From the NCBI GenBank assembly GCA_964479005.1, contig CAYZJA010000001.1, positions 32,001 to 96,000 on the forward strand: 64,000 nt of DNA, in the 5' to 3' direction. The notes beneath the pieces are model-generated. The model was not told the DNA's origin. It was given only the letters and a program-made list of their open reading frames with translations, and searched no databases. Below are positions 31,811-46,880 of the stretch, in pieces. The stretch is from an uncultured Candidatus Saccharibacteria bacterium. GTDB lineage: Bacteria > Patescibacteriota > Minisyncoccia > UBA6257. Position 1 is the stretch's first letter, and each line of letters opens with the position of its first letter. A program made the position numbers and the translations under genes.

Positions 31811-32311
31811 ATGGAGAAACAAGAAAATAATTTTGCCTTTATTGATAGTCAAAATCTTAACTTAGGAATTCAAAGTTTAGGCTGGAAATTGGATCATCGA
31901 AGATTTAGAATTTATTTAAAGGAAAAGTATAGAGTCTCAACGGCATATCTTTTTATTGGTTATATTCCGGCTAATCAGGATTTATATTCTGCATTACAAA
32001 GAGATGGTTATGTTTTAATTTTTAAACCAACATTACCTGATAAAAGCGGAGAAGTTAAAGGTAATGTAGATGCGGATTTAGTCTTACAAGCAATGGTTGA
32101 TTATAAGAAATATGATAAAGCCGTAATTGTTACAAGCGACGGAGATTTTTATTCTTTAATTAAACATTTATACAAAAATAAAAAGCTTATATGTGTAATA
32201 AGCCCATATGTCAAAACTTGTTCTGTTTTATTAAAAAAGACGGCAAAAGAGAAGATATTCTTTATGGCTAATTTAAGAAAAAAACTTGAATATAAAGAAA
32301 AACACCGCTAA
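31811..32311 (+). CDS. NYN-domain (LabA-like) predicted ribonuclease
   Basis: AFIDSQNL ... GNVDADLVLQAM ... VIVTSDGDF: the acidic residues of the NYN/PIN-like fold. Confidence 0.75.
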   Translation: MEKQENNFAFIDSQNLNLGIQSLGWKLDHRRFRIYLKEKYRVSTAYLFIGYIPANQDLYSALQRDGYVLIFKPTLPDKSGEVKGNVDADLVLQAMVDYKKYDKAVIVTSDGDFYSLIKHLYKNKKLICVISPYVKTCSVLLKKTAKEKIFFMANLRKKLEYKEKHR

Positions 32312-32439
32312 GGGACAAAACCCATAGAGGTGTTTTTCATGTGTATTCTGATTAAATTATAGCGAAAATACGCCCATTGTCAAGTACTACTTATTCACAA
32401 GAGATTATTTAAAAATTAATAATTTATTAATGCAATAAA

Positions 32440-33456
32440 ATGAGTTTAAAAATAACTAAAATATTGTCTAAAAACTGGCTTTCTAATAAACAATGGGGGG
32501 AGATTTTGCGTCAGAAAGATAAAACAAATTTTAAGGTAAAAATTGGTCATATTGATCCAAGGCGTCTTGCTGATCCTAATTTTATCAATCGCAGGGTTTT
32601 TTCAGAAAGTAAAACCAAAGAAACGATTATAATTGGTTCAGAGCATCCACACGGTCCAAAGATATGGGAAAGAGCTCAGCAGGAAGCTTCAAAAATGGTG
32701 GAAGAGTGCGCTCAAGCATTTGGGCAAGCAGATCTTATTCAGAAAGCGCAGGAATTGAAAGAGCAAAGTGGCGAGGCAATAAAAACCTTGAAACAAGATG
32801 ATTTACTTGCTCCTGTATCAGAAAAATTTGATTATCATAGTTTTATTATCATTACAGAGTGTACTGATGAGAAAACAGCTAAACAAACCTTGGAAAACCG
32901 TTATTTAGTGCCAACCCATGGTTTTTTAGATGCTCCTGTTCCAGGAATGAATATACCGGGAATGAGTGATAAAACTACTCTAAGAGAACTCTTAAAGACT
33001 GATATGATGAAGGATTATATAACCAAAGAACAGATTAAGGAGATGGAGAAAGCAATGGAGGAGGTAAAGGGTAAATTTCCCAAAGATGTTAAGATTCGCA
33101 AGGGGAAATATCAAGGATTTGATGTTGTATTTCTTGAAGGCAAGAATAAGAGTTCTGTTGTTTCTTACATTAAAGAAAGTAAAGACAGGAATAAGGTTTT
33201 TGATATGGTAAGAGCAGGACGTTTTATTGTGTCAGGCACTTTATTGCGAATAATTAATAGTTTTCCATTAGGAAGTACTCCTTGTGATTCTTTAACAAAA
33301 TTCAAAACAAAAACCACAACTTACGAAATAGGAGGAGAGACTTTCACTACTAAAGAGATTTATCCCATCAAAAGCACCCTTTCTAAGGAGGGTTATCTTT
33401 ATAAAGAAGAAGTTGATAAAATATTCAAATCTATTTTCTCGGCAATTAAAGGATAG
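32440..33456 (+). CDS. Hypothetical protein
   Basis: Long ORF, no recognisable motif. Confidence 0.5.
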   Translation: MSLKITKILSKNWLSNKQWGEILRQKDKTNFKVKIGHIDPRRLADPNFINRRVFSESKTKETIIIGSEHPHGPKIWERAQQEASKMVEECAQAFGQADLIQKAQELKEQSGEAIKTLKQDDLLAPVSEKFDYHSFIIITECTDEKTAKQTLENRYLVPTHGFLDAPVPGMNIPGMSDKTTLRELLKTDMMKDYITKEQIKEMEKAMEEVKGKFPKDVKIRKGKYQGFDVVFLEGKNKSSVVSYIKESKDRNKVFDMVRAGRFIVSGTLLRIINSFPLGSTPCDSLTKFKTKTTTYEIGGETFTTKEIYPIKSTLSKEGYLYKEEVDKIFKSIFSAIKG

Positions 33457-33656
33457 ATTATTTTTTTTAAAGATAGTGAAAAATGCTATAATAAAATAAG
33501 GAGGAAAATTCAGTTCCTCCTTTACCTATAGATATTATTCGTAAATGGCGATGGAGAGAAAAACAAAAAGTTATACTTAAAATAAACGAAAAAAAGAAAA
33601 CAATTACTATCAGCGATTGGAAACCAAAGAGTTAATCTATTCTGTCATCCTGAAGT

Positions 33657-33724
33657 GAGGCGAGGAGATATTGTTTTAAAAACACGCTAATCGCTATAGT
33701 TTTTTTCAACAACATCTCCTCACC
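33657..33724. repeat. Hairpin element, copy 2 (same conserved loop as 2565-2630)
   Basis: GAGGAGATATTGTT ... AACAACATCTCCTC (13/14 bp) flanks a loop TTAAAAACACGCTAATCGCTATAGTTTTTTTC that differs by 1 nt from copy 1. Confidence 0.6.
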
Positions 33725-33860
33725 TTTAAACCTTTAAACCTTAACAATATAACAATTTAAAACCATGCCCCACCGTATTTAGGTGGTTTTTATTTATGGA
33801 TTTAAAATAAATATATGAAAAATCTTGATTAGCAATAAGAATAATTAATAAGCTAAATCA

Positions 33861-34976
33861 ATGGATAAAATAAGAAAAATTTTTATTGTTGTAGCAGGCG
33901 GTAATCCAGAGGCTCAAAAACACTTTGAAGATACAATTAAACGGAAAAGAACACTTAGGGAAGTTCGACAGTCTTTGCCTGCGTCAGAAATAGAAAATCT
34001 GAAGAATATTTATCATGATGCTGCATTTATTGTTTGGGGTTCTGTTCCAGGAAAAATGAATGAACCTCGATGGGAGAAAATGGATGTTGGTGATATTGTT
34101 TTAATTTACAATAAAGGATTTATAAAATTTATTGGTGAAGTTGCTGCGAAGGTACGCAATAAAGAATTAGCGCGTTATTTTTGGAAAGAAACAGAAGAGC
34201 GCAAAACTTGGGAATTAATGTATTTTATAGTTAACGATGAAAAAATTAATGTCCCTATAGAAGAGATTAATAAACTTTTCGGATTTAAGGAAAGATATAT
34301 ACCACGAGGATTTAATATGGTAAATGAAAAAGCCGTTATAGATTCTATGAAGAAGTACGGCGATATTCGAGGAGTATTAAAAACTTTAGAAAGAGGTCAA
34401 CGACTTATTCAAATTCCTGAGAAGCAAAATATTATCTACGAAGCTGAAGAAAAAATTAAACATGTTACTACAGAACATGATGAAATGCAGTGGCGTTTAA
34501 TTCATTTAGGAGGACTAGCAAAATGCGATATTTGGGTTCCTAAGAACGATCAAACGCATCAATATGAGGGACGTCGATTTAAGGATTTTGTTTTACCTGA
34601 ATTTCACCAGACATTAGATGTACCGCTTACAATAAAAAATATTGATGTAGTGTGGAAATTTGGACCTTATTCGATAAAATCAGCCTTTGAGATCGAACAT
34701 TCTACTCAAGTTTATTCCGGAATATTGCGTCTTTCAGATCTACGTGCAGCAAATCCAAATTCAAATTACCCGCTTTTTATAGTAGCTCCTGAGGAACGTA
34801 AAAGAAAGGTTTTTGATGAACTAAGGCGCCCAACTTTTTCGAGCCCATGTTTAAGATTAAATGAAGTAATTAAATTTTTAGGATATAAAACAATTAGAGA
34901 AATTGATAAATCTATAGAAGGTCAAAATGAATTTGATAGCAATGTTTTATTTTCTGCAGGAGAAAAAATAGTATAA
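33861..34976 (+). CDS. Hypothetical protein; possible PUA-like N-domain fused to a restriction-endonuclease-like C-domain
   Basis: N-terminal pattern AAFIVWG...VGDIVLIYNKG...IGEV (PUA/EVE-like); C-terminal D...EIEHS block. Read by eye only. Confidence 0.4.
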   Translation: MDKIRKIFIVVAGGNPEAQKHFEDTIKRKRTLREVRQSLPASEIENLKNIYHDAAFIVWGSVPGKMNEPRWEKMDVGDIVLIYNKGFIKFIGEVAAKVRNKELARYFWKETEERKTWELMYFIVNDEKINVPIEEINKLFGFKERYIPRGFNMVNEKAVIDSMKKYGDIRGVLKTLERGQRLIQIPEKQNIIYEAEEKIKHVTTEHDEMQWRLIHLGGLAKCDIWVPKNDQTHQYEGRRFKDFVLPEFHQTLDVPLTIKNIDVVWKFGPYSIKSAFEIEHSTQVYSGILRLSDLRAANPNSNYPLFIVAPEERKRKVFDELRRPTFSSPCLRLNEVIKFLGYKTIREIDKSIEGQNEFDSNVLFSAGEKIV

Positions 34977-35003
34977 TTTATAATGCTATTAAAGAAATTC
35001 AAC

Positions 35004-35030
35004 CAAAAGGTTAAAAATTAATTAAAAAAT
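35004..35030 (+). promoter_or_regulatory. Island 5' cassette motif (variant copy) directly before the ATG
   Basis: CAAAAGGTTAAAAATTAATTAAAAAAT-ATG. Confidence 0.5.
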
Positions 35031-35906
35031 ATGAAAAGAATATTTTATATTATAGGTGGGATAATTGTTTTAATTATCATTATTATCACAAGTAGTGGAG
35101 GTAAAAGGAGTGGAATAAAATCAGAAGAACTCACCGCTGGAGTCATTGTTGGGGATAAATTATTGGTTGAAGAAGAAAAAACTTATTTAGTGACAAAAGT
35201 AATAGATGGAGATACTATTACTATAGAAGGTGGTGAGGTAATTCGTTATATTGGGATTGATACTCCTGAAACTGTTCATCCTTCAAAACCAGTGGAATGT
35301 TTTGGAAAAGAAGCTTCTAGTAAAAATAAAGAGTTAGTTGATGGGAAGAGGGTAAAATTAGGAAAAGATGTTTCGGAAACAGATAGATATGGACGTCTTC
35401 TTCGTTATGTTTGGGTTGGCGATATTTTTGTAAATGATTATCTTGTAAGGCAAGGTTATGCTTATGCTTATACATATCCTCCTGATGTAAAATATTCTGA
35501 ACAATTTGTTCAAGCCCAACAAGAGGCAAGAGAAAATAATAGGGGGCTATGGGAAGGTTGTCCAGTTACATCTACAGAATATCCTACTACAACCATAATA
35601 ACTCAAGTTGTACCACCAACTACGACAACTACAATAGTAGCCCCCACTACTACAACAACCACAATAGTAGCTCCTACCACTACAACAATCACAACATTGC
35701 CACCTACGACTACTACTGTACCTCCCACTACTACCATTACTTATTTTACCGAGGAAATAATTTGTTCTTATAATGCTTATAATTGTTCTAATTTTTCTAC
35801 TCATGCCGAAGCTCAAGAAGCCTATGAATTCTGCGGTGGAGTTAGTAATGATATCCATCGACTTGATAGAGATAAAGATGGACTAGCATGCGAAAGTTTA
35901 CCTTAG
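35031..35906 (+). CDS. Secreted/membrane-anchored thermonuclease (SNase-like) with a Thr/Pro-rich linker and a C-terminal Excalibur Ca-binding domain
   Basis: N-terminal TM helix; SNase motifs GDTITIEG...IGIDTPE...RYGRLLRYVW; TTTT(I/V)(A)P repeats; DRDKDGLACE Excalibur motif. Confidence 0.85.
   Translation: MKRIFYIIGGIIVLIIIIITSSGGKRSGIKSEELTAGVIVGDKLLVEEEKTYLVTKVIDGDTITIEGGEVIRYIGIDTPETVHPSKPVECFGKEASSKNKELVDGKRVKLGKDVSETDRYGRLLRYVWVGDIFVNDYLVRQGYAYAYTYPPDVKYSEQFVQAQQEARENNRGLWEGCPVTSTEYPTTTIITQVVPPTTTTTIVAPTTTTTTIVAPTTTTITTLPPTTTTVPPTTTITYFTEEIICSYNAYNCSNFSTHAEAQEAYEFCGGVSNDIHRLDRDKDGLACESLP
35590..35740 (+). repeat. Tandem ~30-nt coding repeats (ACTACTACAACAACCACAATAGTAGC...) encoding the Thr/Pro-rich linker
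   Basis: At least two near-identical units plus degenerate copies, visible by eye. Confidence 0.6.
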
Positions 35907-35937
35907 AAGAATTTATGACTTATTCAAATTTAATTTT

Positions 35938-35971
35938 GTAAAACGTCAAAAATTAATTAAAAAATAAAATT
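35938..35971 (+). promoter_or_regulatory. Island 5' cassette motif copy
   Basis: GTAAAACGTCAAAAATTAATTAAAAAATAAAATT-ATG. Confidence 0.55.
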
Positions 35972-37807
35972 ATGGTGAAGGAAAAAGGGAAAAAGAAAGA
36001 ATATCCTAGTGAAACAGCTGTTCAGCTGATTCCTCATTTAAGCGAAGGCACATATACCACTTTTGCAAAAGCAGCAAAGGAATTGGTTATTAATGCATTC
36101 GATGCTAACGCATCGGAGATTCGTATAGATTTTGATAAAGATTTTTCAAGCCTTATATTACTTGATGACGGAGATGGGATGTCATCGAAGAAGTTCAAAA
36201 CAGAATTTCTCCGTATAGCGGGGTCAAAAAGACGGCTAGAATCTCAAAAGAGAAAATACAATAGACCGATGGTGGGAAGATTTGGAATAGGCTTTCTTTC
36301 TGTAGCGAGATTGTGTAAAACCGTTAAAGTTTATTCAAAAGAAAAAGGGAATAATTTTGGCATTGCTAGAGAAATACCCTTGGAGCATCTTTTTGATAAA
36401 GGTAATCAATTAAAGAATTTAAAGGAACAATATTATTTTTATTCTTTACCCGACTTTAGAGATGATAAAAAGAAAAGCTATACGAAAATAATCCTCAGCG
36501 GGCTCCGTCAGGATATTCAGGAAGACCTAAAGTCCGCAAAGAAATTCAAGAAAGTTTGGGGTAGGGTGGATGATCTTTGCGGAATTGAGAAATTTAAGTG
36601 GGAATTAGGCATACTCTCACCTGTGAAATATTTTAATAATTTTCCAGTGCACAGACTATCTAATAGTCAAATTGAACGAGCTAAACAAGAATTAGATAAA
36701 TTTAGTTTTAGAGTTTTTGTTAATAAAAATGAAATATTGAAACCAATTTGTTTAGGATACCATTATTTTACTAACGCTAAATGGGAATATCTTACTAAGG
36801 CTGTACCGAGAAATCATTGTGGTATTATCCCAATCATGTCTCCTCCGGGAGAAAAATTTAAATTTTATGGTTATATTTATAATCAAACTAAACAAATTCA
36901 GCCCTCTTCGCTTAGAGGTATTCTTTTGTGCATTAATCACATTGGCATAAAAGGCTACAGTAAGTCATTATTTGAATTTCCTAAAAACATAGGACCTATT
37001 CTTTCAGCAATTAGTGGAGAGATTTTTCTTGACCCTGCTTTCGAAGAAATACTGACTATTGATAAAGATGATTTTAAGGAAGACCATCCATTATTTAAGA
37101 ATTTAGCAGGTTATATTCATAATGCCATAGATGAAGTTGCTGCTAACTCTCGAAAAAGATCCAGTAGGATTAAAGCAAAAAAGAAGGAAGTTGCAAGAAT
37201 AAAAGACTTAGATCTTTCTTCGGAGGAAGTAAAACAAGCACAGAAGATTTTAGGCAAAAAAGAATTCAAACAAGAATATTTCCCGAATCCCGATATTTCA
37301 ATAAGAACAAATATCAAAAATTTAAAGACTCGAGTAAGAAATTTGGTCGGGAAGACCATAGACCAAGACGAGGCAAGCTATTTAATAGAATCTCTCGAAT
37401 GTTTTGAGGCGGATTGTTTCAGGGGGTCTATATTAATGGCATGGAATACAGGGATGTTTCGTATTCACCGAAAGATAGCAAAAAATATAGGGTTTGCTAA
37501 ATTTCAGAGCGAAATTATAAAGATGAGAACTTCATTACAAACACCACAAGCTCAAAAAAGCAGGCTGAAAAATTGTAATTGCTTAGATGATTTGAAGTAC
37601 TATAATGAAGAAATGATTTGTAGACTTTTGAAAAAAATTCAGTTAATGGACAGCATCACGGCGAAATTATTTTATGAAGTACTAATCAAGATAAGGCATT
37701 ATTGCGCACATCCTACTGGGCACAGAGCAACTGATGGAGAGGCTATTTTTATGATTCAGTCTGTCTTAGATAGAATTTTGAATAGTAATAGGTTTATTAT
37801 TAAATGA
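35972..37807 (+). CDS. GHKL (Hsp90/MORC-like) ATPase with a C-terminal HEPN-like domain
   Basis: Bergerat-fold motifs ELVINAFDA (N box), LLDDGDGM (G1), GRFGIGF (G2). C-terminal Rx4H motif IKIRHYCAHPTGH. Confidence 0.7.
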   Translation: MVKEKGKKKEYPSETAVQLIPHLSEGTYTTFAKAAKELVINAFDANASEIRIDFDKDFSSLILLDDGDGMSSKKFKTEFLRIAGSKRRLESQKRKYNRPMVGRFGIGFLSVARLCKTVKVYSKEKGNNFGIAREIPLEHLFDKGNQLKNLKEQYYFYSLPDFRDDKKKSYTKIILSGLRQDIQEDLKSAKKFKKVWGRVDDLCGIEKFKWELGILSPVKYFNNFPVHRLSNSQIERAKQELDKFSFRVFVNKNEILKPICLGYHYFTNAKWEYLTKAVPRNHCGIIPIMSPPGEKFKFYGYIYNQTKQIQPSSLRGILLCINHIGIKGYSKSLFEFPKNIGPILSAISGEIFLDPAFEEILTIDKDDFKEDHPLFKNLAGYIHNAIDEVAANSRKRSSRIKAKKKEVARIKDLDLSSEEVKQAQKILGKKEFKQEYFPNPDISIRTNIKNLKTRVRNLVGKTIDQDEASYLIESLECFEADCFRGSILMAWNTGMFRIHRKIAKNIGFAKFQSEIIKMRTSLQTPQAQKSRLKNCNCLDDLKYYNEEMICRLLKKIQLMDSITAKLFYEVLIKIRHYCAHPTGHRATDGEAIFMIQSVLDRILNSNRFIIK

Positions 37808-38940
37808 CAAAAATCCTATTAGTAGAACCAAATTTTCCTATACCACCTAAAAGTAAAAATCATAGGGATTTTTTACCTATTGGATTATTAAAACTAGCAA
37901 ACTATCACAGAGGAAAGGGGGATAAAATTAAACTTGTTAGGGGAAATTATTATTTCCCCGATTTTTATCCCAGTCAGGTAAAAATAACTTCGCTTTTTAC
38001 ATATTGGTCTAATTATGTGTGGGAAAGTGTAAAATTCTACAAAGAAAACTATCCGAAAGCCAAAGTGATAGTTGGCGGCATTTATGCATCGTTAATGCCG
38101 GAGCATTGCAAAAAATCAGGTTGCGACGAAGTATTCATTGGAGTGGATAAGAACGCTGAAAAGTATGAACCAGCCTATGATTTGGTAAATGTAGATTACC
38201 AGATAATGCATACAAGCAGAGGTTGTATTAGAAGATGCAAGTTTTGCGGCACATGGAAGATAGAGCCGGAATTCAAATATAAAAAAAGCATAAAAGACGA
38301 GATTTGTAGCAATCGAATAATCTTTTATGATAATAATCTCTTAGCCAATCCTTATATAAAAAATATTTTTGAAGAGCTAAAGAATTCTAAATATAATGGC
38401 AGGGTTGTATATTCTGAAAGTCAATGTGGCATTGATGGTAGATTGCTTACGCCAAAACTAGCGAAATTGCTAAAACAAGCGAGATTTCTGAATCCGAGAA
38501 TTGCATGGGATCATAGTTATGGTCAGCGAAAAATGATAAAAAAACAAATTGATATGTTGGTAGATGTCGGTTATCCCGTTAAAGACATCTATATTTTCAT
38601 GATCTATAATTTTGAACAAGATTATTATGAAATGCTGAATAAACTTAGGCAATGCAAAAAATGGGGTGTCCAGATTGCGGATTGTAGATATCGACCCTTG
38701 GATCAAACTTTTGATAATTATAATCCTCGAATAAGCCAGACAAATAAAGATTATTATATTCATTCTAAATGGAGTGATAGGCAAATTAAACTTTTCAGAA
38801 AGAAAGTCAGACAACAGAATATTATGATAAGACATGGGTTTGATTTTTACAGTAAAGAGTTGGAAAGATTGGGGACGAAGAAAAGAAATAAAAAAAATAG
38901 TGTCAAATCTATCCTAAATAACCAAAAGGTCAAAAATTAA
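37804..38940 (+). CDS. B12-binding-domain radical SAM enzyme, translationally coupled to the upstream GHKL-HEPN gene
   Basis: ATGA overlap with the upstream stop; N-terminal B12-binding-like segment; radical SAM cluster motif SRGCIRRCKFCG (CxxxCxxC). Confidence 0.75.
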   Translation: MTKILLVEPNFPIPPKSKNHRDFLPIGLLKLANYHRGKGDKIKLVRGNYYFPDFYPSQVKITSLFTYWSNYVWESVKFYKENYPKAKVIVGGIYASLMPEHCKKSGCDEVFIGVDKNAEKYEPAYDLVNVDYQIMHTSRGCIRRCKFCGTWKIEPEFKYKKSIKDEICSNRIIFYDNNLLANPYIKNIFEELKNSKYNGRVVYSESQCGIDGRLLTPKLAKLLKQARFLNPRIAWDHSYGQRKMIKKQIDMLVDVGYPVKDIYIFMIYNFEQDYYEMLNKLRQCKKWGVQIADCRYRPLDQTFDNYNPRISQTNKDYYIHSKWSDRQIKLFRKKVRQQNIMIRHGFDFYSKELERLGTKKRNKKNSVKSILNNQKVKN

Positions 38941-38955
38941 TTGAAAAATAAAAAT
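38923..38955 (+). promoter_or_regulatory. Island 5' cassette motif copy; its 5' half encodes the C-terminus (QKVKN*) of the radical SAM gene
   Basis: CAAAAGGTCAAAAATTAATTGAAAAATAAAAAT, followed after 24 nt by the ATG at 38980. Confidence 0.55.
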
Positions 38956-38979
38956 TAGGAATAGAAGGCGGAAATTATT

Positions 38980-40296
38980 ATGGGAAAAGAAGAAACAAAA
39001 AAAGAAGAAATGAAACCATGTCCTTTATGTGGGACAATGCTTTTATATGATAAATGGTTACAAGTAGTAGGTGTATATGAAGAACAGCAGAAATATAAAA
39101 AACAATTGGAATTAGAATTAAGCAAAGCCAAAAAGCAAGAATTAAAGCTAAAAGAAGAATATAAAAAAATTCGTCAGAAAGAAAAAGAAATACGGACTCA
39201 GTACGCTCTTAAAAAATCAAAACTTAGCCAGCAGCATAAAACGCAATTAGAAAAACTCCAAAAAAGATTTGAAAAAGAAAAACGAAAAGTGCTGAATCAG
39301 GCTAAAAAGGAAGGCATTAAAATCGGTTTTGAGAAAGAACAAGCAAGATTAAAAAAGCTCAAACAACAACAAAAGAAGATCAAAAAGCAATTAGAAAGAC
39401 AAAAACAAATAGAATTAAAACGAATTTATCGTAAAGGAATTGGAATGGGGGAAGAAAAACAGAAAGCAAGAACAGAAAAAGTAAGTCTGATGGCTGAGAG
39501 ACGTCGTAAAGAAAGGGACAAAGCAATGGAGAAAGTAAAACAACTTGAGGAAATGATGAAACAAGGTACAACACCACAGATAGAAGGGTTTAATTTTGAG
39601 AAAGAGTTTGCTAAGCAACTCAAGCAAAAATTTCCAGAGGATGACATAAAGCCAACTGGACATAAGGGGGATATTATCCATACAGTTCAAGCAAAAGAGG
39701 AGAAAATTGGAAAAATTATCTATGAGTGCAAAAAAACTAAAGAATTCGAAAACAAATTTATTGAACAAATTCGACGAGATAAAACTAGAGTAATTGCAGA
39801 TTATGGAGTAATTGTTACTTGGACCACAAAAGAGAGTAAGCAGAATTTTTGGTTGGCGGGAGATATAATTATAGTTCATCCCTATGGGGCCTTAGATATA
39901 GCAACACTTCTCCGCGAAACACTGATACAAATGTATACACTTAAGTTATCAAGGGCAGAGTTTGAGACCAAGGGTAAAGCTATTCTTAAATTTATGCAAT
40001 CTGAGGAATTTAGAACAAGAATTCAAAATTCTATTGTTAAAAGCAGAGAAGCTTATGAATCTTTAAAGAAGGAGATTACAACGCATTTTAATACTTGGGA
40101 TAAGAGAGCCAAGATATACGAAAGTATCTATAAAAACACAAATATTATTCAGCGTACCGTTCAATACGTATTACTTTATAGTAAGATTCCTGAAAATTTA
40201 CCCGAAACAAAAGGACTTCCGCCACTCCAAATATTACCCAAAAAAGAATCAAAAGAGCAAGAAAAAGAGCAAAATGAACAAAACAGACAAAAATAA
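38980..40296 (+). CDS. Coiled-coil protein with a C-terminal PD-(D/E)xK nuclease-like domain (DUF2130-like architecture)
   Basis: N-terminal CPLCG Zn-ribbon-like motif; ~200 aa of K/E/Q coiled coil; GDIIHTV...KIIYECKK gives a D...ExK motif. Confidence 0.55.
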   Translation: MGKEETKKEEMKPCPLCGTMLLYDKWLQVVGVYEEQQKYKKQLELELSKAKKQELKLKEEYKKIRQKEKEIRTQYALKKSKLSQQHKTQLEKLQKRFEKEKRKVLNQAKKEGIKIGFEKEQARLKKLKQQQKKIKKQLERQKQIELKRIYRKGIGMGEEKQKARTEKVSLMAERRRKERDKAMEKVKQLEEMMKQGTTPQIEGFNFEKEFAKQLKQKFPEDDIKPTGHKGDIIHTVQAKEEKIGKIIYECKKTKEFENKFIEQIRRDKTRVIADYGVIVTWTTKESKQNFWLAGDIIIVHPYGALDIATLLRETLIQMYTLKLSRAEFETKGKAILKFMQSEEFRTRIQNSIVKSREAYESLKKEITTHFNTWDKRAKIYESIYKNTNIIQRTVQYVLLYSKIPENLPETKGLPPLQILPKKESKEQEKEQNEQNRQK

Positions 40297-40353
40297 CCAT
40301 TTTTTAGTATAAATTATCTATTTTAAATTTGTGGATTATATAATATTTGTGCC

Positions 40354-41310
40354 ATGGATGATTTATTTTTTCAAGACCAAAAAGACTATAATGAATTTAC
40401 AGTGTTTCAGGATGAAGCAGGATGTAAAGTCTCCAATTATTTTTATCATGGGTTTCTATTTATAGATAATAGATTTGGGAGAGAGATTCTTGATAGTTTA
40501 ATAAATATCAAAAAAGATGAGAATCATAGGTATACAGAAGTCCATTTTACAGATATTAAAGCTGGTAGTAATAAAGAATATGGATATAAGACAAAAATTG
40601 CTCTTGAATGGTTGAATCTAGCAAAAGGATGGTTGTTTAATAGAAAGATTAAATTTTATATTTTAGGAATTAATAAGAATAATTTAGGAAATTTTTGGAA
40701 TAATAATTGGCGATATGAAAAGAATATTTATTTACGATTTTTTGAATTAGGACTTAAGACATCTATGGGCTGGTTTGGGAATGATAAAAGGTTGATTAAA
40801 CCATTAAGAGCATCACATTTATTTTACGAATATGGAAAATATAATGATGACAGAAAGAATAAAGTAATTTGGTTAAGTAAATTCAATTTTGGAAATTTAT
40901 TAACTAATCAAAATATACAGCCAATTTTCTCTGATGAGAAAAAACAACAAAAACAAAATCCGCTACTTGCTGAATTCTCAAATTTAGACCAATTAACAGA
41001 TCTTATACTTGGCGTGACTAAATATAGTTTTATTAACATAAACCTAAAGCATATAGGAAAGCAGGAATGCATTGTTAGCTTTATTGATATAATAGAAAAA
41101 TTTAATAATCAAAAAACCGCTTTTAATACAAACGATGATTTTTATAAGAATTTTTGTCTTAGCTTTTTTCCTAAAAATGAGATAGATAAAAAAGATTTTT
41201 TGGAAAAGACTACAGATTACTATATTAAGACTATAGATAATTTTTACCCTGATAGATTTACATATAGGCAGCAATTAGCCAAAGACAAAAATTTAACACT
41301 TAATTTTTAA
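40354..41310 (+). CDS. Hypothetical protein, possibly DUF3800-like
   Basis: N-terminal FTVFQDEAG resembles the DUF3800 DExG start. No upstream cassette motif, so it is probably co-transcribed with 38980. Confidence 0.35.
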   Translation: MDDLFFQDQKDYNEFTVFQDEAGCKVSNYFYHGFLFIDNRFGREILDSLINIKKDENHRYTEVHFTDIKAGSNKEYGYKTKIALEWLNLAKGWLFNRKIKFYILGINKNNLGNFWNNNWRYEKNIYLRFFELGLKTSMGWFGNDKRLIKPLRASHLFYEYGKYNDDRKNKVIWLSKFNFGNLLTNQNIQPIFSDEKKQQKQNPLLAEFSNLDQLTDLILGVTKYSFININLKHIGKQECIVSFIDIIEKFNNQKTAFNTNDDFYKNFCLSFFPKNEIDKKDFLEKTTDYYIKTIDNFYPDRFTYRQQLAKDKNLTLNF

Positions 41311-41323
41311 AAACTGAACTTAG

Positions 41324-41367
41324 CAAAAGGTCAAAAATGAATTGAGAAATAATTTAATTATAAAAAT
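41324..41367 (+). promoter_or_regulatory. Island 5' cassette motif copy (variant)
   Basis: GCAAAAGGTCAAAAATGAATTGAGAAATAATTTAATTATAAAAAT-ATG. Confidence 0.5.
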
Positions 41368-41958
41368 ATGCCAAGAAGAAAAACATTGCTTGATGAAATA
41401 TTTTATATATTAGAGAGAATTAGTGTTGTATATGTAATAGCATTATTTTTTATTTGGTTTTCTGACAAAGAATTATTTTTTAAATTATTAGGATGGGGAC
41501 TCGCAATATTAGGTATTTTAATCGCAATTGTAATATTTACGAAAAGATCGAAGATTCATAAACGAAGTCAATTTGATACTGATAGGGAGTTACAGAAATG
41601 GCTAGGTGATTTGAAGCATTGGGAATTTGAAAATTACATTGGAGATTTATTTAATAAATTAGGATATAAAACTCGGGTTATTGGTGGATCATATGATGAA
41701 GGAATTGACGTTATTGCTGAGAAAAACGGAATAAAACATTATATCCAATGCAAAAAATATAGTAATAGTGTTGGGGTGAAGGATGTGAGAGAATTTTATG
41801 GAGCTTTATCTGATAAATTATCTAATGATAAAGCCTTTTTTATCACCACTAATTTTTTTACTGAAGGAGCTGAAAGATTTGTCGAAGACAAACCAATTGA
41901 ATTAGTTGATGGTAATCAACTCGTTAAATACATTCGCCTTGCCGAAAAATCTAACTAA
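41368..41958 (+). CDS. Membrane-anchored Mrr-cat restriction endonuclease-like protein
   Basis: Two N-terminal TM helices; Mrr_cat core FENYIGDLF...GGSYDEGIDVIAE...IQCKKY (D/ExK). Confidence 0.7.
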   Translation: MPRRKTLLDEIFYILERISVVYVIALFFIWFSDKELFFKLLGWGLAILGILIAIVIFTKRSKIHKRSQFDTDRELQKWLGDLKHWEFENYIGDLFNKLGYKTRVIGGSYDEGIDVIAEKNGIKHYIQCKKYSNSVGVKDVREFYGALSDKLSNDKAFFITTNFFTEGAERFVEDKPIELVDGNQLVKYIRLAEKSN

Positions 41959-41995
41959 AACGTCAAAAATTAATTGAAAAATGAAAAATAAAATT
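41955..41995 (+). promoter_or_regulatory. Island 5' cassette motif copy
   Basis: CTAAAACGTCAAAAATTAATTGAAAAATGAAAAATAAAATT; the ATG is 20 nt downstream. Confidence 0.5.
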
Positions 41996-42015
41996 TAGTC
42001 CGAAGTTGGATAATT

Positions 42016-42588
42016 ATGTTTAAAAATCTTTTGCTAAAAAACAAATCATTAAAAATTTTAATACTCATTAATGCCGTTTTTTTACTTGGAGCCAGTATGT
42101 TTCCTCCAATTTTTGCTTTGTTTGTAGAAGAAATAGGGGGAAATGCCTTTACTGCAGGAAGTATTTGGGCAACCTTTGCTATTGGGACAGGATTTTTAAT
42201 GCTGATTATCAGTCGTTATGGTGACAAACTGAAAGAGAGAGAATATTTAGTAGCAGCAGGCTATATTTTTAGATGTTTGGCTTGGTTAGGTTACTTTTTT
42301 GTTAATGCGCTTTGGCAGTTATATTTCTTGCAATTAATATTGGCTTTGGGTGAATCTTTTGGAACTCCCGCGTTTCTGGGTATATATTCTGAGCATTTAG
42401 ACAAAGGAAGACATATAAGACAGTGGGGAGTTTATACTTCTTTTACTATAATTATCGGAGGAGTTGCCGCCTTTCTGGGAGGGGCAATAGTTTCTCAATT
42501 CGGATTTAGGGTTCTTTTTCTTGTAATGACCTCTTTATCTGCTTTAGCTTTTTTTCTTTTGATTATTCAGCCTCGAAAACTGCTCTAA
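42016..42588 (+). CDS. MFS-transporter C-terminal half (6 TM); possibly a truncated gene
   Basis: Hydrophobicity pattern and the GxxxG-rich helices typical of MFS TM7-12. Only a half-transporter is present. Confidence 0.5.
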   Translation: MFKNLLLKNKSLKILILINAVFLLGASMFPPIFALFVEEIGGNAFTAGSIWATFAIGTGFLMLIISRYGDKLKEREYLVAAGYIFRCLAWLGYFFVNALWQLYFLQLILALGESFGTPAFLGIYSEHLDKGRHIRQWGVYTSFTIIIGGVAAFLGGAIVSQFGFRVLFLVMTSLSALAFFLLIIQPRKLL

Positions 42589-42661
42589 GGAAAAAGTCTG
42601 TCTTTTTTGGGCCATTCTTTCCTGGGCCATCAAATTTAGTTCGAAGTTGAGAAAATTTAAC

Positions 42662-42692
42662 CAAAAGGTCAAAAATTAATTGAAAATAAAAA
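42662..42692 (+). promoter_or_regulatory. Island 5' cassette motif copy
   Basis: CAAAAGGTCAAAAATTAATTGAAAATAAAAA-ATG. Confidence 0.55.
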
Positions 42693-43019
42693 ATGATTAA
42701 AAAACATAATAAGTTAATTCGGGATAGAATTTTGGAAATTATTGAGGCAAATAAAGAGAAGTCTTATTTTCGGATTCTAAATAAAAAAGAATATATTAAA
42801 GAGATAAAGAAGAAAATATTAGAAGAAGCTAAAGAATTAATTGAAGCCAAAAGCAAAAAGGAAGTTATTAATGAAATTGTTGATATTCAAGAATTAATTG
42901 ATGTTTTGATATCTGAAAGTGGTTTAACAAAATTACAGATTCAAAAACAGCAAGAAGTAAAAAATAAAAAGCGAGGCGGATTTAAAAAGCGACTATTTTT
43001 AATAAAGACAAAAAATTAA
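42693..43019 (+). CDS. Small MazG-like/PRA-PH-like nucleotide pyrophosphohydrolase (putative)
   Basis: N-terminal KLIRDRILEII resembles MazG-like NTP-PPases. All-alpha, 108 aa. Confidence 0.45.
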   Translation: MIKKHNKLIRDRILEIIEANKEKSYFRILNKKEYIKEIKKKILEEAKELIEAKSKKEVINEIVDIQELIDVLISESGLTKLQIQKQQEVKNKKRGGFKKRLFLIKTKN

Positions 43020-43092
43020 TCCTTCGACACGGTTCAGGACAAGTTGAGAAAAATAACTCAAAATTGAGAGGATTAAGAATTTTAGAAATTTG

Positions 43093-43875
43093 ATGAAAAT
43101 TAAGTTTATTAAAATCAAAGCAAAGCAAATTTTTACTAAAACTGGCATTCCAGGGGCAAAATGGGTCTTAAATCAGTATGTAGGATGTGAACATGCTTGT
43201 CCATATTGTTATGCTAAGTTTATGGGCAGATGGCGGCCGAAAAACTATGGAAAATGGGGAAACTGGGTTGAAGTAAAAGAAAATGCTTCTGAATTAGTAA
43301 AAGGCAAGTATGTAGATTCTTGGGTATATATGAGTTCTGTTTCTGATCCATACCAACCCATTGAAAAAAAATTAAAAATAACTCGTAAAGTTTTAGAAAA
43401 TTTAGATAAAAGAATTAAATTAGCTATTCTTACTAAGTCAGATTTAGTGTTACGAGATATAGATTTATTTAAGAAGTTTAAGAATATTGAGGTTGGGTTA
43501 ACTATAAATAGTTTTGATAGTTCTCTGAAGAAGGTTTTTGAGCCGTTTTCATCAAAAAACGAGGATAGAATAAAGGCTTTGAAAGTCCTTAAAGAGAATG
43601 GAATAAGAACTTATACTTTTATTAGCCCGATAATTCCTGGACTAATAAATTTAAAAGATGTAATTAGAAAAACTAAAAATTTGACTGATTATTATTGGTT
43701 CGAAATGATTAATATGAAACTAGCTGGTAGAGAATTTATCAAGATTTTGAGAAAAGAATCTCCCGAAAGTTTAGAAGTCGTTACTAATAAAAGGAAGTTT
43801 GAAAAGTTTGTAAAAGAATGTAAAAATATTATTAATTCAGAAGATATAAAGGTTAGAGGGATAGAGATTCACTAA
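43093..43875 (+). CDS. Radical SAM protein of the SplB/DNA-photolyase-like (COG1533) type
   Basis: VGCEHACPYCYA CxxxCxxC cluster close to the N-terminus, typical of the family. Confidence 0.7.
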   Translation: MKIKFIKIKAKQIFTKTGIPGAKWVLNQYVGCEHACPYCYAKFMGRWRPKNYGKWGNWVEVKENASELVKGKYVDSWVYMSSVSDPYQPIEKKLKITRKVLENLDKRIKLAILTKSDLVLRDIDLFKKFKNIEVGLTINSFDSSLKKVFEPFSSKNEDRIKALKVLKENGIRTYTFISPIIPGLINLKDVIRKTKNLTDYYWFEMINMKLAGREFIKILRKESPESLEVVTNKRKFEKFVKECKNIINSEDIKVRGIEIH

Positions 43876-43905
43876 AGGGTCAAAAATTAATTGAAAAATA
43901 AAAAT
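43874..43905 (+). promoter_or_regulatory. Island 5' cassette motif copy
   Basis: AAAGGGTCAAAAATTAATTGAAAAATAAAAAT-ATG. Confidence 0.55.
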
Positions 43906-44358
43906 ATGGCAATAAAATGGAACAAGATCGATTTTGATTTAGTTAAACGTCTTAGAGGATTGGCTGAATTATCTTGTAATAATGGAGATTATATAGGGGC
44001 CTTTGTTCTTCAGATGCTATTTTTGGAGGGTACGTTAGTGTTCATAGTTAAGAATTTATTAAATCAAAAAAGGGTAGACAAGGAATTATCTAATAAATTT
44101 TCTCAAGGATACCCAACATTCGCTTCTCTTATGGATTATTTTTTTCTGTTGACAACGAATCACGATATATTTAATAAGTTAAGAGATGTAAATAAACGTA
44201 GAAATAAAATAATTCATAATATTTTTGAATTTGAAACTTTTGATGCTCTCCAGCAAGAATCGCGAGAACTGTATTTAGAATCGCGGAAACTAGAAGTTGA
44301 TTTAATAGGTCAATACCTTAGTAAGTTTTTGAAAAATAAAAAATTAATTGAAAAATAA
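43906..44358 (+). CDS. Hypothetical protein with a possible HEPN-like Rx4H motif
   Basis: KRRNKIIHN near the C-terminal third. Start set at the ATG that follows the motif rather than the upstream TTG. Confidence 0.35.
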   Translation: MAIKWNKIDFDLVKRLRGLAELSCNNGDYIGAFVLQMLFLEGTLVFIVKNLLNQKRVDKELSNKFSQGYPTFASLMDYFFLLTTNHDIFNKLRDVNKRRNKIIHNIFEFETFDALQQESRELYLESRKLEVDLIGQYLSKFLKNKKLIEK

Positions 44359-44362
44359 GATT

Positions 44363-44935
44363 ATGGAGAGTAAAGCTTATATTAATTTTCGCGCTCAAGT
44401 ACATAAACAAAGCATAGATGTTTTAATGCGTATTTTCGGTGATTTAATATCTAAAAATATAAAAGATGTGACTTTAATTGTTTCTTCATCTGGTGGACAA
44501 GTTCAACCAGCTCTTGATTTTTATGATTTTGCAAAAGGATTACCAATAACTATCGCCACGTATACTATTGGACAGGTTGCTTCTGCGGCTATCGTAATCT
44601 ATTGTGTAGCTGAAAAGCGATATACGCATAGCCGAAGTAAATTCCTAATTCATGGTATTCGTGGGGATGTAAAAGGTTTCTCTATTAAGGATATGAAAGA
44701 AAAGATAATGCCAAATTTAACAGATCAAAGTAATAAGATTGCGGAAATTATTGCCGAAGCAACAAAAAAGAATAAATCAGATGTTGAAAAAGATATGACC
44801 GAAGAGAAAGAATTAAGTGCAGAAAAAGCGATCAAGTATGGTTTAGTTACCGCTAGTGTCGATGATCAACCCATTAAAATGATAGGAGATCCAGTAATAA
44901 CTATTGGTGATGATCTTTTCAAAGATAAACGATAG
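44363..44935 (+). CDS. ClpP-family serine peptidase paralog
   Basis: ClpP-like blocks SSSGGQVQPALDFYDF, GQVASAAIVIY (Ser), LIHGI (His). A partial cassette motif is encoded in the last codons of the upstream gene (KKLIEK*). Confidence 0.6.
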   Translation: MESKAYINFRAQVHKQSIDVLMRIFGDLISKNIKDVTLIVSSSGGQVQPALDFYDFAKGLPITIATYTIGQVASAAIVIYCVAEKRYTHSRSKFLIHGIRGDVKGFSIKDMKEKIMPNLTDQSNKIAEIIAEATKKNKSDVEKDMTEEKELSAEKAIKYGLVTASVDDQPIKMIGDPVITIGDDLFKDKR

Positions 44936-44967
44936 AAAAGCTAAAACAAGAGTCAATTTTATTTTTA

Positions 44968-44999
44968 ACAAAAGGTCAAAAATTAATTAATAAAAAAAT
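44968..44999 (+). promoter_or_regulatory. Island 5' cassette motif copy
   Basis: ACAAAAGGTCAAAAATTAATTAATAAAAAAAT-ATG. Confidence 0.55.
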
Positions 45000-46856: not shown

Positions 46857-46880
46857 AATCCTATCAAAGTCGAATTTCGT

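What the first reader, a model, noticed from the sequence alone, without database searches (positions are those of the whole stretch)
35972..38940. Translationally coupled GHKL-ATPase/HEPN protein plus B12-binding radical SAM enzyme: candidate new two-gene conflict system
ORF 35972-37807 has clear Bergerat-fold motifs (ExxxNAxDA, DDGDGM, GRFGIGF) and a C-terminal Rx4H motif (IKIRHYCAHPTGH), the hallmark of HEPN RNases. An Hsp90-like ATPase plus HEPN is the architecture known from sacsin-like proteins. Its stop overlaps, as ATGA, the start of a radical SAM protein that carries a B12-binding-like N-domain and a CxxxCxxC cluster (SRGCIRRCKFCG). The pair sits inside the cassette island among nucleases and other defense-like genes, and each gene unit has its own cassette motif. 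I do not recognise a GHKL-HEPN ATPase paired with a B12-radical SAM enzyme as a described defense system; it could be an NTP-dependent RNase effector paired with a nucleotide- or RNA-modifying radical enzyme.
Basis: partly seen in the sequence, partly recalled or inferred. Interest (0 to 1): 0.75.

Follow-up and report, generated by a model that had tools for sequence, protein, structure and literature searches.

The report
Radical SAM enzyme with swappable nuclease partners
A fused ATPase-nuclease gene is translationally coupled to a very conserved radical SAM enzyme gene; this pair is one variant of a widespread, mobile and apparently undescribed family of candidate anti-phage modules in anaerobes, in which the same radical SAM enzyme is teamed with many different ATPase-nuclease partners.

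Summary
ORF 35972-37807 is a GHKL ATPase with intact Bergerat motifs. Its C-terminal domain models confidently as HEPN, with an invariant Rx4H. ORF 37804-38940 overlaps it by ATGA and is a radical SAM enzyme with a cobalamin-domain-like N-terminus and an invariant CxxxCxxC.

Distant homologues of the fusion (42-58% identity) still have the radical SAM gene directly downstream. The C-terminus is HEPN. The enzyme matches no housekeeping family.

The picture is larger than a two-gene pair. About 2,500 radical SAM homologues exist, often about 80% identical across bacterial and archaeal phyla. Among about 90 cellular loci, every one with enough flank pairs the enzyme with an NTPase plus effector set. 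These include:
- GHKL plus an unknown 330-aa protein (commonest)
- GHKL-HEPN
- ParB-HEPN
- ParB fused to a DpnII/MboI restriction nuclease
- SNF2, SMC-like, NurA-HerA, DndB-like and DrmE-like partners

Loci sit in defence islands, a conjugative element and plasmids. Phages carry solitary copies. PADLOC and the literature searches gave no match.

Best reading (about 0.4): a restriction-modification-like system, with the radical SAM enzyme marking nucleic acid and an NTP-gated nuclease as effector. Function is untested.

The parts
35945..35965 (+). Upstream copy of the 21-nt intergenic motif GTCAAAAATTAATTAAAAAAT. It marks the 5' boundary of the two-gene unit and ends 6 nt before the ATG.
   Evidence: exact match; 11 copies against 0.25 expected.
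35972..37807 (+). GHKL ATPase - HEPN fusion protein gene (611 aa).
   Evidence: ORF; HATPase_c_3; precomputed Pfam PF13589 + PF27235 'AF_1680'; about 36 full-length homologues.
36059..36358 (+). Bergerat-fold ATP-binding domain (aa 30-129): N-box ELVINAFDA (aa 37), DDGDG (aa 65), GRFGIG (aa 102).
   Evidence: E=4e-17, above Pfam cut-off; BbrUII/HgiDII restriction enzyme N-terminus E=6e-28; sacsin ATP-binding domain E=2e-10; motif residues nearly invariant.
36359..37243 (+). Middle region (aa 130-424). It is shared with the unfused ~520-550-aa GHKL partners of the three-gene variants; its fold was not determined.
   Evidence: phmmer 1e-19 to 1e-28 to the L004, L009 and L005 GHKL proteins.
37244..37804 (+). 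C-terminal HEPN domain (aa 425-611; Pfam PF27235 AF_1680 family).
37694..37711 (+). Rx4H catalytic motif RHYCAH (R575...H580). The family consensus is R-N-x-C-A-H-P-T.
   Evidence: R, A, H and P invariant across the GHKL- and ParB-fused subfamilies.
37804..37807 (+). ATGA stop/start overlap (translational coupling).
   Evidence: The same -4 overlap between partner and radical SAM gene is seen in many loci.
37804..38940 (+). Radical SAM enzyme gene (378 aa), the invariant core of the family.
   Evidence: 2495 homologues; the top 120 are at least 68% identical, across many phyla; structure.
37804..38178 (+). N-terminal Rossmann-like, cobalamin-binding-domain-like domain (about aa 1-125).
38224..38247 (+). 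CxxxCxxC radical SAM [4Fe-4S] motif (C141, C145, C148).
   Evidence: invariant in 107 sequences; C107, C208, C284 and C294 are also invariant.
38764..38937 (+). Strongly basic C-terminal helical extension (aa 321-378, pI 11.2) with invariant K329, R332, R336, N339 and R343. It is a candidate nucleic-acid-binding surface (inference).
38929..38949 (+). Downstream copy of the 21-nt motif. It overlaps the radical SAM stop codon and marks the 3' boundary of the unit.

Best explanation
The two genes form one co-transcribed, translationally coupled module of a mobile conflict (anti-phage or anti-plasmid) system with restriction-modification-like logic.

Shown:
- The first protein joins an active-looking GHKL ATPase to a HEPN nuclease domain with an invariant Rx4H.
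- The second is a class-B-like radical SAM enzyme. It is the invariant core of a large family of modules whose other genes are interchangeable NTPase plus effector sets.

Inferred mechanism:
1. The radical SAM enzyme uses SAM-derived radical chemistry to put a covalent mark on host nucleic acid. DNA is the most likely target.
2. The GHKL module is an NTP-driven dimerising clamp, as is ParB_N in sister variants. When it loads on unmarked, foreign nucleic acid, ATP-dependent dimerisation brings two HEPN domains together and completes the composite nuclease site.
3. The activated nuclease cleaves nucleic acid, either restricting the invader or shutting the cell down.
4. Phages carry solitary copies of the enzyme as a counter-measure, much as they carry orphan methyltransferases.
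For: Module is real.
- The pairing holds from 100% down to 36-44% identity.
- Even radical SAM relatives at about 25% identity on alphaproteobacterial plasmids sit in a DGQHR(DndB/DpdB-like) + radical SAM + GHKL triad.
- The pair is bracketed by the intergenic motif, with none inside.

Core plus variable partners. Among 91 cellular loci:
- 38 have GHKL plus the X330 protein
- 6 have the GHKL-HEPN fusion
- 7 have the ParB_N-HEPN fusion
- 4 have ParB_N plus a 500-aa protein
- 5 have SNF2 plus a 335-aa protein
- 8 have an SMC-like ATPase plus a 135-aa protein
- 3 have a DndB-like protein
- 2 have NurA plus HerA-like
- 1 each has ParB_N-REase_DpnII/MboI, DrmE_C or AIPR
The rest (5 with a cut X330 gene, 10 undetermined) lie at contig edges or are truncated.

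Effector swap. The ParB_N-REase protein of L063 is 42% identical to the ParB_N-HEPN protein of L002 over its first ~290 aa, but carries a DNA restriction nuclease domain where HEPN would be. Its radical SAM gene is 66% identical to the window's.

R-M analogy.
- The GHKL N-domain is most similar to BbrUII/HgiDII restriction enzymes and PADLOC REase_II models.
- A related GHKL (P0048) follows a C5 DNA methylase where the radical SAM gene would be.
- The modification-like gene is far more conserved than its partners.

Context.
- hsdM lies directly downstream in about 10 loci.
- One copy is on a conjugative element.
- One sits beside a type IIG-like methylase and toxin-antitoxin genes.

Phage copies. 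All 7 viral contigs carry the enzyme alone. In two it lies beside or two genes from the terminase gene, and in one it is close to a C5 methylase.

Active sites are intact. Both proteins are basic, pI about 9.6. The host is an anaerobe carrying NrdD.

Precedent. A radical SAM enzyme that installs a DNA modification is known from phage M6 gp53 (PMC8989533).
Against: - No modification has been shown, and the substrate is entirely inferred.
- HEPN domains are, as far as is known, RNases. A DNA-marking enzyme coupled to an RNase needs an extra step: sensing at DNA level and killing at RNA level.
- A GHKL + X330 (PF28273 PP_RS20740) pair occurs without any radical SAM gene on a 47-kb contig. The 'restriction' half can therefore exist unprotected, which is unusual for a true R-M system.
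- No solitary radical SAM gene was seen in cellular loci with adequate flank, whereas orphan modification genes are common in R-M, Dnd and Dpd systems.
- Identity of about 80% between archaea and bacteria is higher than usual for DNA-modifying enzymes. It would also fit an enzyme acting on a universal small molecule.
- Adjacency to type I R-M may be only defence-island clustering.
Confidence: 0.4

Rival explanations
1. Abortive-infection or signalling system. The radical SAM enzyme is not a self-marker. It converts a universal nucleotide or metabolite into an antiviral analogue (viperin-like) or into a signal. The NTPase-nuclease partners act as sensors or second effectors, possibly binding that product in their nucleotide pockets.
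For: - Extreme conservation of the enzyme across phyla fits a universal small-molecule substrate.
- 'One conserved enzyme plus swappable effectors' is also the layout of CBASS, Thoeris and type III CRISPR (my own knowledge).
- Every partner set contains a nucleotide-binding NTPase.
- HEPN is a typical abortive-infection RNase (PMC3710099).
- GHKL + X330 exists without the enzyme, so the enzyme looks like an add-on.
Against: - There is no PADLOC viperin hit.
- No recognisable ligand-sensor domain (CARF, SAVED, SLOG or STING) was found in partners.
- Solitary copies in phages next to packaging and methylase genes are easier to explain as modification enzymes.
- The partners are DNA-handling proteins of the R-M, Dnd, Dpd and DISARM type.
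Confidence: 0.2
2. RNA-level immunity pair. The radical SAM enzyme modifies a host RNA, such as a tRNA anticodon loop or rRNA. That RNA is then resistant to the HEPN RNase, or the modification state is what the nuclease reads. This would resemble methylthiotransferases or Cfr/RlmN acting on RNA.
For: - HEPN domains are RNases.
- NTPase-HEPN anticodon nucleases (PrrC, RloC) linked to type I R-M are a known precedent (PMC3710099).
- Type I R-M is a frequent neighbour here.
Against: - Most variants have no HEPN at all.
- One variant replaces HEPN by a DNA restriction nuclease domain on the same ParB scaffold.
- Partners such as ParB, DGQHR/DndB, SNF2, NurA-HerA and DrmE are DNA-directed.
- There is no TRAM, PUA or THUMP-type RNA-binding domain.
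Confidence: 0.15
3. Toxin-antitoxin-like or maturase relationship. The radical SAM enzyme covalently modifies its partner protein, either to activate it or to keep it harmless. Known parallels are MNT AMPylating HepT toxins, and MgmA or Mmp10 methylating a protein.
For: - The genes are translationally coupled.
Against: - An almost invariant enzyme (about 80% identity) serves at least ten unrelated partner families, which does not fit a dedicated protein substrate.
- Phages carry the enzyme with no partner.
- No residue or motif common to all partners was found: hhalign shows no relation between HEPN, X330, W500, Y335 and the others.
Confidence: 0.08
4. The adjacency is incidental. The radical SAM gene is a metabolic or housekeeping enzyme that happens to lie next to a GHKL-HEPN gene in an island.
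For: Pfam and NCBIfam give only weak, generic radical SAM and B12 matches, so a metabolic role cannot be excluded by annotation alone.
Against: - The linkage is kept over deep divergence and in many phyla.
- Overlapping stop and start codons recur.
- Both gene orders occur.
- The module is inserted between unrelated housekeeping genes in different genomes: enolase/DivIC in L108 and DnaJ/MiaB in L107.
Confidence: 0.02

Closest known systems
Sacsin (eukaryotic Hsp90-like ATPase repeats + DnaJ + C-terminal HEPN)
   Different: This protein has a single ATPase module and no UBL or DnaJ domain. It is prokaryotic and mobile, keeps an intact Rx4H, and is always coupled to a radical SAM gene. The HEPN belongs to a different family (PF27235 AF_1680). 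It resembles sacsin in architecture but is not an orthologue.
GHKL-ATPase restriction enzymes and R-M-associated MORC/paraMORC ATPases (BbrUII/HgiDII family)
   Same: This is the best sequence match of the ATPase domain: NF050001 E=6e-28 over aa 20-187, and PADLOC REase_II models. A related GHKL (P0048) sits directly after a C5 DNA methylase.
   Different: Only the first ~170 residues match, at 97.7 bits against a family cut-off of 550. The nuclease part is HEPN rather than the family's own C-terminus. The companion gene is a radical SAM enzyme rather than a methyltransferase.
Dnd/Ssp (phosphorothioate) and Dpd (7-deazaguanine) DNA modification-restriction systems
   Same: In those systems a conserved modification module that does not use a methyltransferase combines with variable restriction modules. 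ParB-like DndB/DpdB (DGQHR) proteins, SMC-like ATPases and SNF2 helicases are among the partners. DGQHR/DpdB-like proteins sit next to the radical SAM gene in several loci and plasmids here.
   Different: No Dnd, Ssp or Dpd enzymes (DndA, DndC, DndE, DpdA or DpdC) are present. The only candidate modifying enzyme is a class-B-like radical SAM protein, and no modification has been shown.
PrrC / RloC anticodon nucleases (ABC NTPase + HEPN, embedded in type I R-M loci)
   Same: Both have an NTPase-gated HEPN nuclease associated with R-M genes (PMC3710099). Type I R-M is a frequent immediate neighbour here.
   Different: The NTPase here is GHKL or ParB rather than an ABC ATPase. There is an obligatory radical SAM partner, and no evidence for tRNA targeting.
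Class B (cobalamin-domain) radical SAM enzymes: AprD4, TsrM, MgmA, CysS, TokK; and the methylthiotransferases MiaB and RimO
   Different: Identity is only 10-15%, and no PDB relative is found by sequence. At 378 aa it is shorter than these enzymes, and it has a unique basic C-terminal helical tail. Cobalamin use is unknown; AprD4, the best match, does not use it as far as I know. The genomic context is entirely different.
Prokaryotic viperins (pVips), to my knowledge the only radical SAM enzymes established in anti-phage defence
   Same: Both are radical SAM enzymes encoded in defence contexts.
Phage M6 gp53 radical SAM isomerase (thymidine hypermodification)
   Same: It is a precedent for a radical SAM enzyme acting on DNA bases in a host-phage conflict (PMC8989533).
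   Different: gp53 is like spore photoproduct lyase. It works on a pre-installed glycinyl-thymidine within a multi-enzyme phage pathway, and it is unrelated in sequence and context.

Membership tests
GHKL (Bergerat-fold) ATPase superfamily | N-box ExxxNAxDA, G1 box DxGxG and G2 box GxxGxG in order, with a profile match above threshold. | tested here: met
   ELVINAFDA (aa 37), DDGDG (aa 65) and GRFGIG (aa 102). HATPase_c_3 scores 62.9 bits against a cut-off of 25. The motif residues are nearly invariant in 34 homologues.
GHKL (Bergerat-fold) ATPase superfamily | ATP binding, ATP hydrolysis and nucleotide-dependent dimerisation. | not testable with these tools
   Inferred from motif conservation only.
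HEPN superfamily | All-alpha up-down helical bundle of the HEPN fold. | tested here: met
HEPN superfamily | Conserved Rx4-6H motif. | tested here: met
   R575-x4-H580 is invariant. The consensus R-N-x-C-A-H-P-T holds across the GHKL-fused and ParB-fused subfamilies.
HEPN superfamily | Metal-independent endoribonuclease activity. | not testable with these tools
Radical SAM superfamily | CxxxCxxC cluster motif in a partial TIM barrel. | tested here: met
Class B, cobalamin-dependent radical SAM enzymes | N-terminal Rossmann-like cobalamin-binding domain fold. | tested here: met
Class B, cobalamin-dependent radical SAM enzymes | Actual binding and use of cobalamin. | not testable with these tools
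   The best structural match, AprD4, has the domain but to my knowledge no cobalamin. Hosts include reduced-genome lineages (Saccharibacteria, Nanoarchaeota) that rarely make B12. This is an inference and only weakly argues against cobalamin use.
BbrUII/HgiDII family restriction enzymes (NF050001) | Full-length match above the curated cut-off of 550 bits. | tested here: not met
   Only aa 20-187 match, at 97.7 bits.
Known anti-phage systems in PADLOC-DB v2 (including viperin, Tiamat and Mza) | Profile matches to the system's component proteins. | tested here: not met
   The radical SAM protein has no hit at E<=0.1. The GHKL domain gives only N-terminal matches to REase_II and weak TmtA models. 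MzaB scores 16.8 bits against a cut-off of 850.
Restriction-modification-like (modification-based self/non-self) systems | A modification enzyme that marks host nucleic acid, and a nuclease that is blocked by the mark. | not testable with these tools
   Only indirect support is available: partner types, the REase/HEPN domain swap, orphan phage copies and a methylase in the equivalent position.
Sacsin family | Repeated SRR (Hsp90-like) supradomains plus DnaJ plus HEPN; eukaryotic orthology. | tested here: not met
   There is a single ATPase module and no DnaJ. Pfam SACS scores 17.9 bits against a cut-off of 32.8.

The most novel reading that the evidence does not exclude
A new class of modification-based immunity, spread by horizontal transfer among anaerobic bacteria, archaea and their plasmids. 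In it, a cobalamin-domain radical SAM enzyme replaces the methyltransferase and writes a radical-derived mark on DNA that has not been described. Interchangeable NTP-gated nuclease modules (GHKL-HEPN, ParB-HEPN, ParB-REase, GHKL + PP_RS20740-family protein, NurA-HerA, SNF2 and others) read its absence. Phages carry orphan copies to escape.
Probability: 0.3. Interest if true: 0.9.

Novelty: new variant of a known kind. Interest (0 to 1): 0.78.

Why it matters
If the radical SAM enzyme is the self-marking component, this would be the first cellular restriction-modification-type system built on radical SAM chemistry, and it probably implies a new nucleic-acid modification.

The family is large: about 2,500 clusters at 90% identity. 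It spans many phyla of anaerobes, including candidate phyla and archaea, and appears to be missing from defence-system catalogues, so it may be a real blind spot in defence annotation of anaerobic microbiomes.

The same HEPN domain is fused to two unrelated nucleotide-driven dimerising clamps, GHKL and ParB. This gives a simple, testable model for how HEPN nucleases are switched on, and a prokaryotic counterpart for the unexplained Hsp90-HEPN combination in human sacsin.

Even under the rival readings (antiviral nucleotide synthesis, or RNA-level immunity), the enzyme's chemistry would be new.

Tried and rejected
- Third large homologue search, with a HEPN-domain profile. It returned only 7 fragments and added little.
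- Profile-profile comparison of the HEPN domain with the other partner families X330, W500, Y335, DndB-like and HerA-like. No relationship was found, so these are different effectors and not diverged HEPN.
- PDB sequence searches. The HEPN domain, the radical SAM enzyme and the X330 profile gave nothing usable. Pfam on 33 X330 members also gave nothing. X330 is only identifiable as the uncharacterised PF28273/NF047698 'PP_RS20740' family. The one paper naming that gene calls it hypothetical.
- Structure searches. AFDB50 was unavailable. The BFVD search gave only generic radical SAM phage proteins.
- Integron idea for the 'cassette' motif. The 336-aa minus-strand ORF at 14298-15308 is an LCP-family protein, not an integrase. 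No recombinase was seen near the array. I did not resolve what the motif is.
- Viperin-like reading: rejected as a family assignment.
- Literature searches on AF1680, GHKL/HEPN/radical SAM, ParB/HEPN/radical SAM, MORC/R-M, DGQHR, B12/anti-phage and DNA modification/defence island. None described this module. Subscription-only papers are not covered.
- Whether the many ~250-290-aa AF_1680-family HEPN proteins are also linked to radical SAM genes could not be tested, because no context look-up is allowed for those ids.


Full report
OBSERVATION

They share ATGA at 37804-37807. All quoted peptide motifs are present.

The first protein has a significant HATPase_c_3 domain at aa 30-129: E=4e-17, 62.9 bits against a cut-off of 25. 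Its best curated match is the N-terminal ATPase of BbrUII/HgiDII restriction enzymes (E=6e-28, N-terminal 170 residues only). It also matches the sacsin ATP-binding domain (E=2e-10).

The second protein gives only sub-threshold B12-binding and Radical_SAM matches.

STRUCTURE

I modelled the C-terminal 212 residues of the first protein with 33 homologues. The model has pLDDT 94.8 and pTM 0.90 and is all-helical.
- R575, H580 and P581 are invariant in 34 homologues. The R and the AHP are also invariant in a second subfamily in which the same domain is fused to ParB_N instead of GHKL.
- A newer Pfam release used by the database calls this domain PF27235 'AF_1680'.

The radical SAM protein modelled at pLDDT 89.9.
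- Viperin reaches only 10.9.

The architecture 'cobalamin-domain-like Rossmann domain + radical SAM barrel' is therefore correct. Whether cobalamin is used cannot be said. C141/C145/C148 are invariant in 107 sequences, as are C107, C208, C284 and C294. The last 58 residues form a very basic helical tail, pI 11.2.

IS THE PAIR A UNIT?

The radical SAM protein has about 2,495 homologous clusters. The best 120 are all 68-100% identical although they come from many phyla: Elusimicrobia, Zixibacteria, Omnitrophota, Ignavibacteria, Atribacterota, Bacteroidota, Clostridia, Saccharibacteria, Methanobacteriota and Nanoarchaeota. The GHKL-HEPN fusion has only about 36 full-length homologues.

I collected 13 genome loci, 80 metagenome loci and 7 viral loci anchored on the radical SAM gene. 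I called ORFs and clustered the neighbours.
- All six further GHKL-HEPN fusions lie immediately upstream of the radical SAM gene. Four have the same 4-nt overlap and two lie within 2 nt.
- In the reverse direction I looked up three divergent fusion homologues chosen without reference to the radical SAM gene: P0018 (58% identity), P0026 (44%) and P0031 (42%). Each has a radical SAM homologue directly downstream, at 53%, 36% and 37% identity.
- In P0026's contig the pair sits alone between the enolase and divIC/recO genes. In a Zixibacteria MAG a sister pair sits between dnaJ and a miaB-like gene. The module behaves as an inserted unit.
- In the window, a 21-nt motif occurs 11 times against 0.25 expected, all on the + strand. 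It brackets the pair at 35945-35965 and 38929-38949 and is absent between the two genes.

THE WIDER FAMILY

The two-gene form is a minority. Partner sets among the 91 cellular loci anchored on the radical SAM gene:

| Partner set | Loci |
|---|---|
| Separate GHKL ATPase (~520-550 aa) + unknown ~330-aa protein ('X330') | 38 |
| SMC-like AAA_23 ATPase + 135-aa protein | 8 |
| ParB_N-HEPN fusion (~478 aa; Pfam ParB_N + AF_1680) | 7 |
| GHKL-HEPN fusion | 6 |
| SNF2 helicase + 335-aa protein | 5 |
| X330 gene seen, but contig or ORF cut | 5 |
| ParB_N protein + ~500-aa protein | 4 |
| DGQHR/DndB-DpdB-like protein | 3 |
| NurA + HerA-like pair | 2 |
| ParB_N fused to a DpnII/MboI-type restriction nuclease | 1 |
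| DrmE_C-containing protein | 1 |
| AIPR protein | 1 |
| Undetermined: radical SAM gene at a contig edge or with under 1 kb of flank | 10 |

In the GHKL + X330 variants, the GHKL is homologous to the window's GHKL and middle region, and both gene orders occur. No cellular locus with adequate flank shows the radical SAM gene alone.

Two comparisons are especially informative.
- Effector swap. The ParB_N-REase protein of L063 is 42% identical to the ParB_N-HEPN protein of L002 over the first ~290 residues, with a different C-terminal domain. Its radical SAM gene is 66% identical to the window's. HEPN and a DNA restriction nuclease are therefore interchangeable effectors on one scaffold.
- Deep linkage. 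Radical SAM relatives of only ~25% identity on Rhizobium, Roseomonas and Novosphingobium plasmids sit in a DGQHR + radical SAM + GHKL triad. ParB_N, DEAD-helicase and PIN_8 + GHKL genes lie beside it. The radical SAM-GHKL link is therefore old.

CONTEXT
- hsdM lies directly downstream in about 10 loci. One is a full type I R-M operon with an inserted TIR gene.
- The Velamenicoccus copy lies on a conjugative element carrying TraG, a T4SS and TraE.
- P0031's pair overlaps the end of a type IIG-like methylase-nuclease gene and is followed by HEPN-MNT and PemK genes.
- The window's host is an anaerobic bacterium, with bacterial rpoB/rpoC and NrdD.
- All seven viral contigs carry the radical SAM gene alone. 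These copies match phrog_9298. In L100 the gene is next to the terminase gene, in L101 it is two genes away, and in L102 it lies close to a C5 DNA methylase. GenBank phages also have distant copies, for example Marinitoga camini virus 1 at 34% identity.

MECHANISM

What is shown:
- Two intact enzymes, a GHKL ATPase and a radical SAM enzyme, and an intact HEPN site.
- Obligate linkage of the two genes.
- A constant enzyme with variable NTPase-effector partners.
- Mobility and defence-island context.
- Solitary phage copies.

What I infer:
1. The radical SAM enzyme is the modification half of a restriction-modification-like system. The conserved-modifier, variable-restriction pattern is that of Dnd/Ssp and Dpd systems, which also use ParB-like DndB/DpdB, SMC-like and SNF2 proteins (my knowledge, plus PMC10853773). 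A related GHKL protein sits behind a C5 methylase in the equivalent position.
2. GHKL and ParB_N are both nucleotide-driven dimerising clamps, binding ATP and CTP respectively (established knowledge). HEPN nucleases need dimerisation to form their active site. Fusion of one HEPN family to both clamps therefore suggests NTP-gated assembly of the nuclease on unmarked nucleic acid.

I put this at about 0.4. The main difficulties are these:
- HEPN domains are RNases.
- A GHKL + X330 pair exists without any radical SAM gene.
- Orphan cellular copies were not seen.
- The very high conservation would also suit a small-molecule substrate.

The rivals, with my estimates:
- a viperin- or signal-type enzyme in an abortive-infection system (0.2)
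- RNA-level marking (0.15)
- modification of the partner protein (0.08)
- coincidence (0.02)

COMPARISON WITH KNOWN SYSTEMS

The protein resembles sacsin in architecture only. Its ATPase resembles HgiDII-type restriction enzymes, but only at the N-terminus (97.7 bits against a cut-off of 550). The radical SAM enzyme has the class-B fold but no close relative by sequence. It hits nothing in PADLOC-DB v2.

Nine full-text searches found no description of a radical SAM enzyme coupled to GHKL, ParB or HEPN partners. The HEPN survey of 2013 lists ParB-HEPN fusions but no radical SAM link. The only radical SAM enzyme reported to install a DNA modification in the papers I found is phage M6 gp53, which is unrelated to this one.

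VERDICT

The pair is a fused two-gene variant of a large, modular, horizontally mobile family centred on one radical SAM enzyme, and that family appears undescribed. I class it as a new variant of a known kind (modification-type or NTPase-nuclease conflict systems). It would move towards a new category if the enzyme proves to write a new DNA mark. Function is inferred and has not been demonstrated.

Noticed in passing
window 35010-50570 (11 sites, e.g. 35010, 35945, 38929, 41330, 41962, 42668, 43879, 44336, 44975, 47556, 50550): The 21-nt AT-rich motif GTCAAAAATTAATTRAAAAAT occurs 11 times, all on the + strand, against 0.25 expected. It sits at gene boundaries and sometimes overlaps a stop codon, often only 6-35 nt before the next ATG. 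It defines gene units in a one-directional array. Its nature (promoter, terminator, recombination site or translation signal) is unresolved, and no integrase was found nearby.
   Followed up: partly
window 38980-41310: DUF2130 protein (438 aa, long coiled-coil N-terminus) plus an unknown 318-aa protein. They lie between two motif copies (38929 and 41330) with no motif between them, so they may form another two-gene unit.
   Followed up: no
window 31811-35906 and 41368-41958: A run of nuclease-type genes surrounds the pair: NYN (31811-32311), an NmeDI_C/REase_II-like protein (33861-34976), a secreted SNase + Excalibur thermonuclease with a Thr/Pro-rich linker (35031-35906), and an Mrr_cat nuclease with N-terminal membrane helices (41368-41958).
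   Followed up: partly
window 43090-43875: A second, unrelated small radical SAM protein (about 260 aa, Pfam Radical_SAM in the precomputed annotation) lies in the same one-directional array. It is followed by ClpP-like, serpin, hydrolase and aminotransferase genes.
   Followed up: no
L001 4994-6001, L004 4614-5612 and 40 other loci; the P0038 contig: The ~330-aa 'X330' partner is the commonest neighbour of the radical SAM gene. It belongs to the uncharacterised PF28273/NF047698 'PP_RS20740' family, with conserved motifs YLTLP...D, E, YNLDF and FLT. A GHKL + PP_RS20740 pair also occurs with no radical SAM gene, so it may be a self-standing two-gene module.
   Followed up: partly
L114 (Rhizobium pCC511_1), L116 (Roseomonas p2-AD3), L117 (Novosphingobium pNL1): Alphaproteobacterial plasmids carry a conserved block: ParB_N protein, DEAD/DEAH helicase, DGQHR protein, ~545-aa radical SAM protein and GHKL ATPase, plus a separate PIN_8 + GHKL pair. 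It looks like a larger relative of the same system.
   Followed up: partly
L105 9186-17137 (Elusimicrobia UBA5214): A type I R-M operon lies directly after the radical SAM module. It has a TIR-domain gene inserted between hsdM and hsdS, and an unknown 564-aa gene before hsdR.
   Followed up: no
proteins P0210-P0335: The AF_1680-type HEPN domain is much more widespread than the fusions: 1,063 representatives at E<=1e-3. Most are ~250-290-aa proteins with an unknown ~100-aa N-terminal domain. Their genomic context could not be examined.
   Followed up: no
window 33457-33860: An unusually long (404-nt) non-coding gap in an otherwise tightly packed array. It contains the 7-bp inverted repeat GGAGGAA / TTCCTCC with a 5-nt loop.
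   Followed up: no
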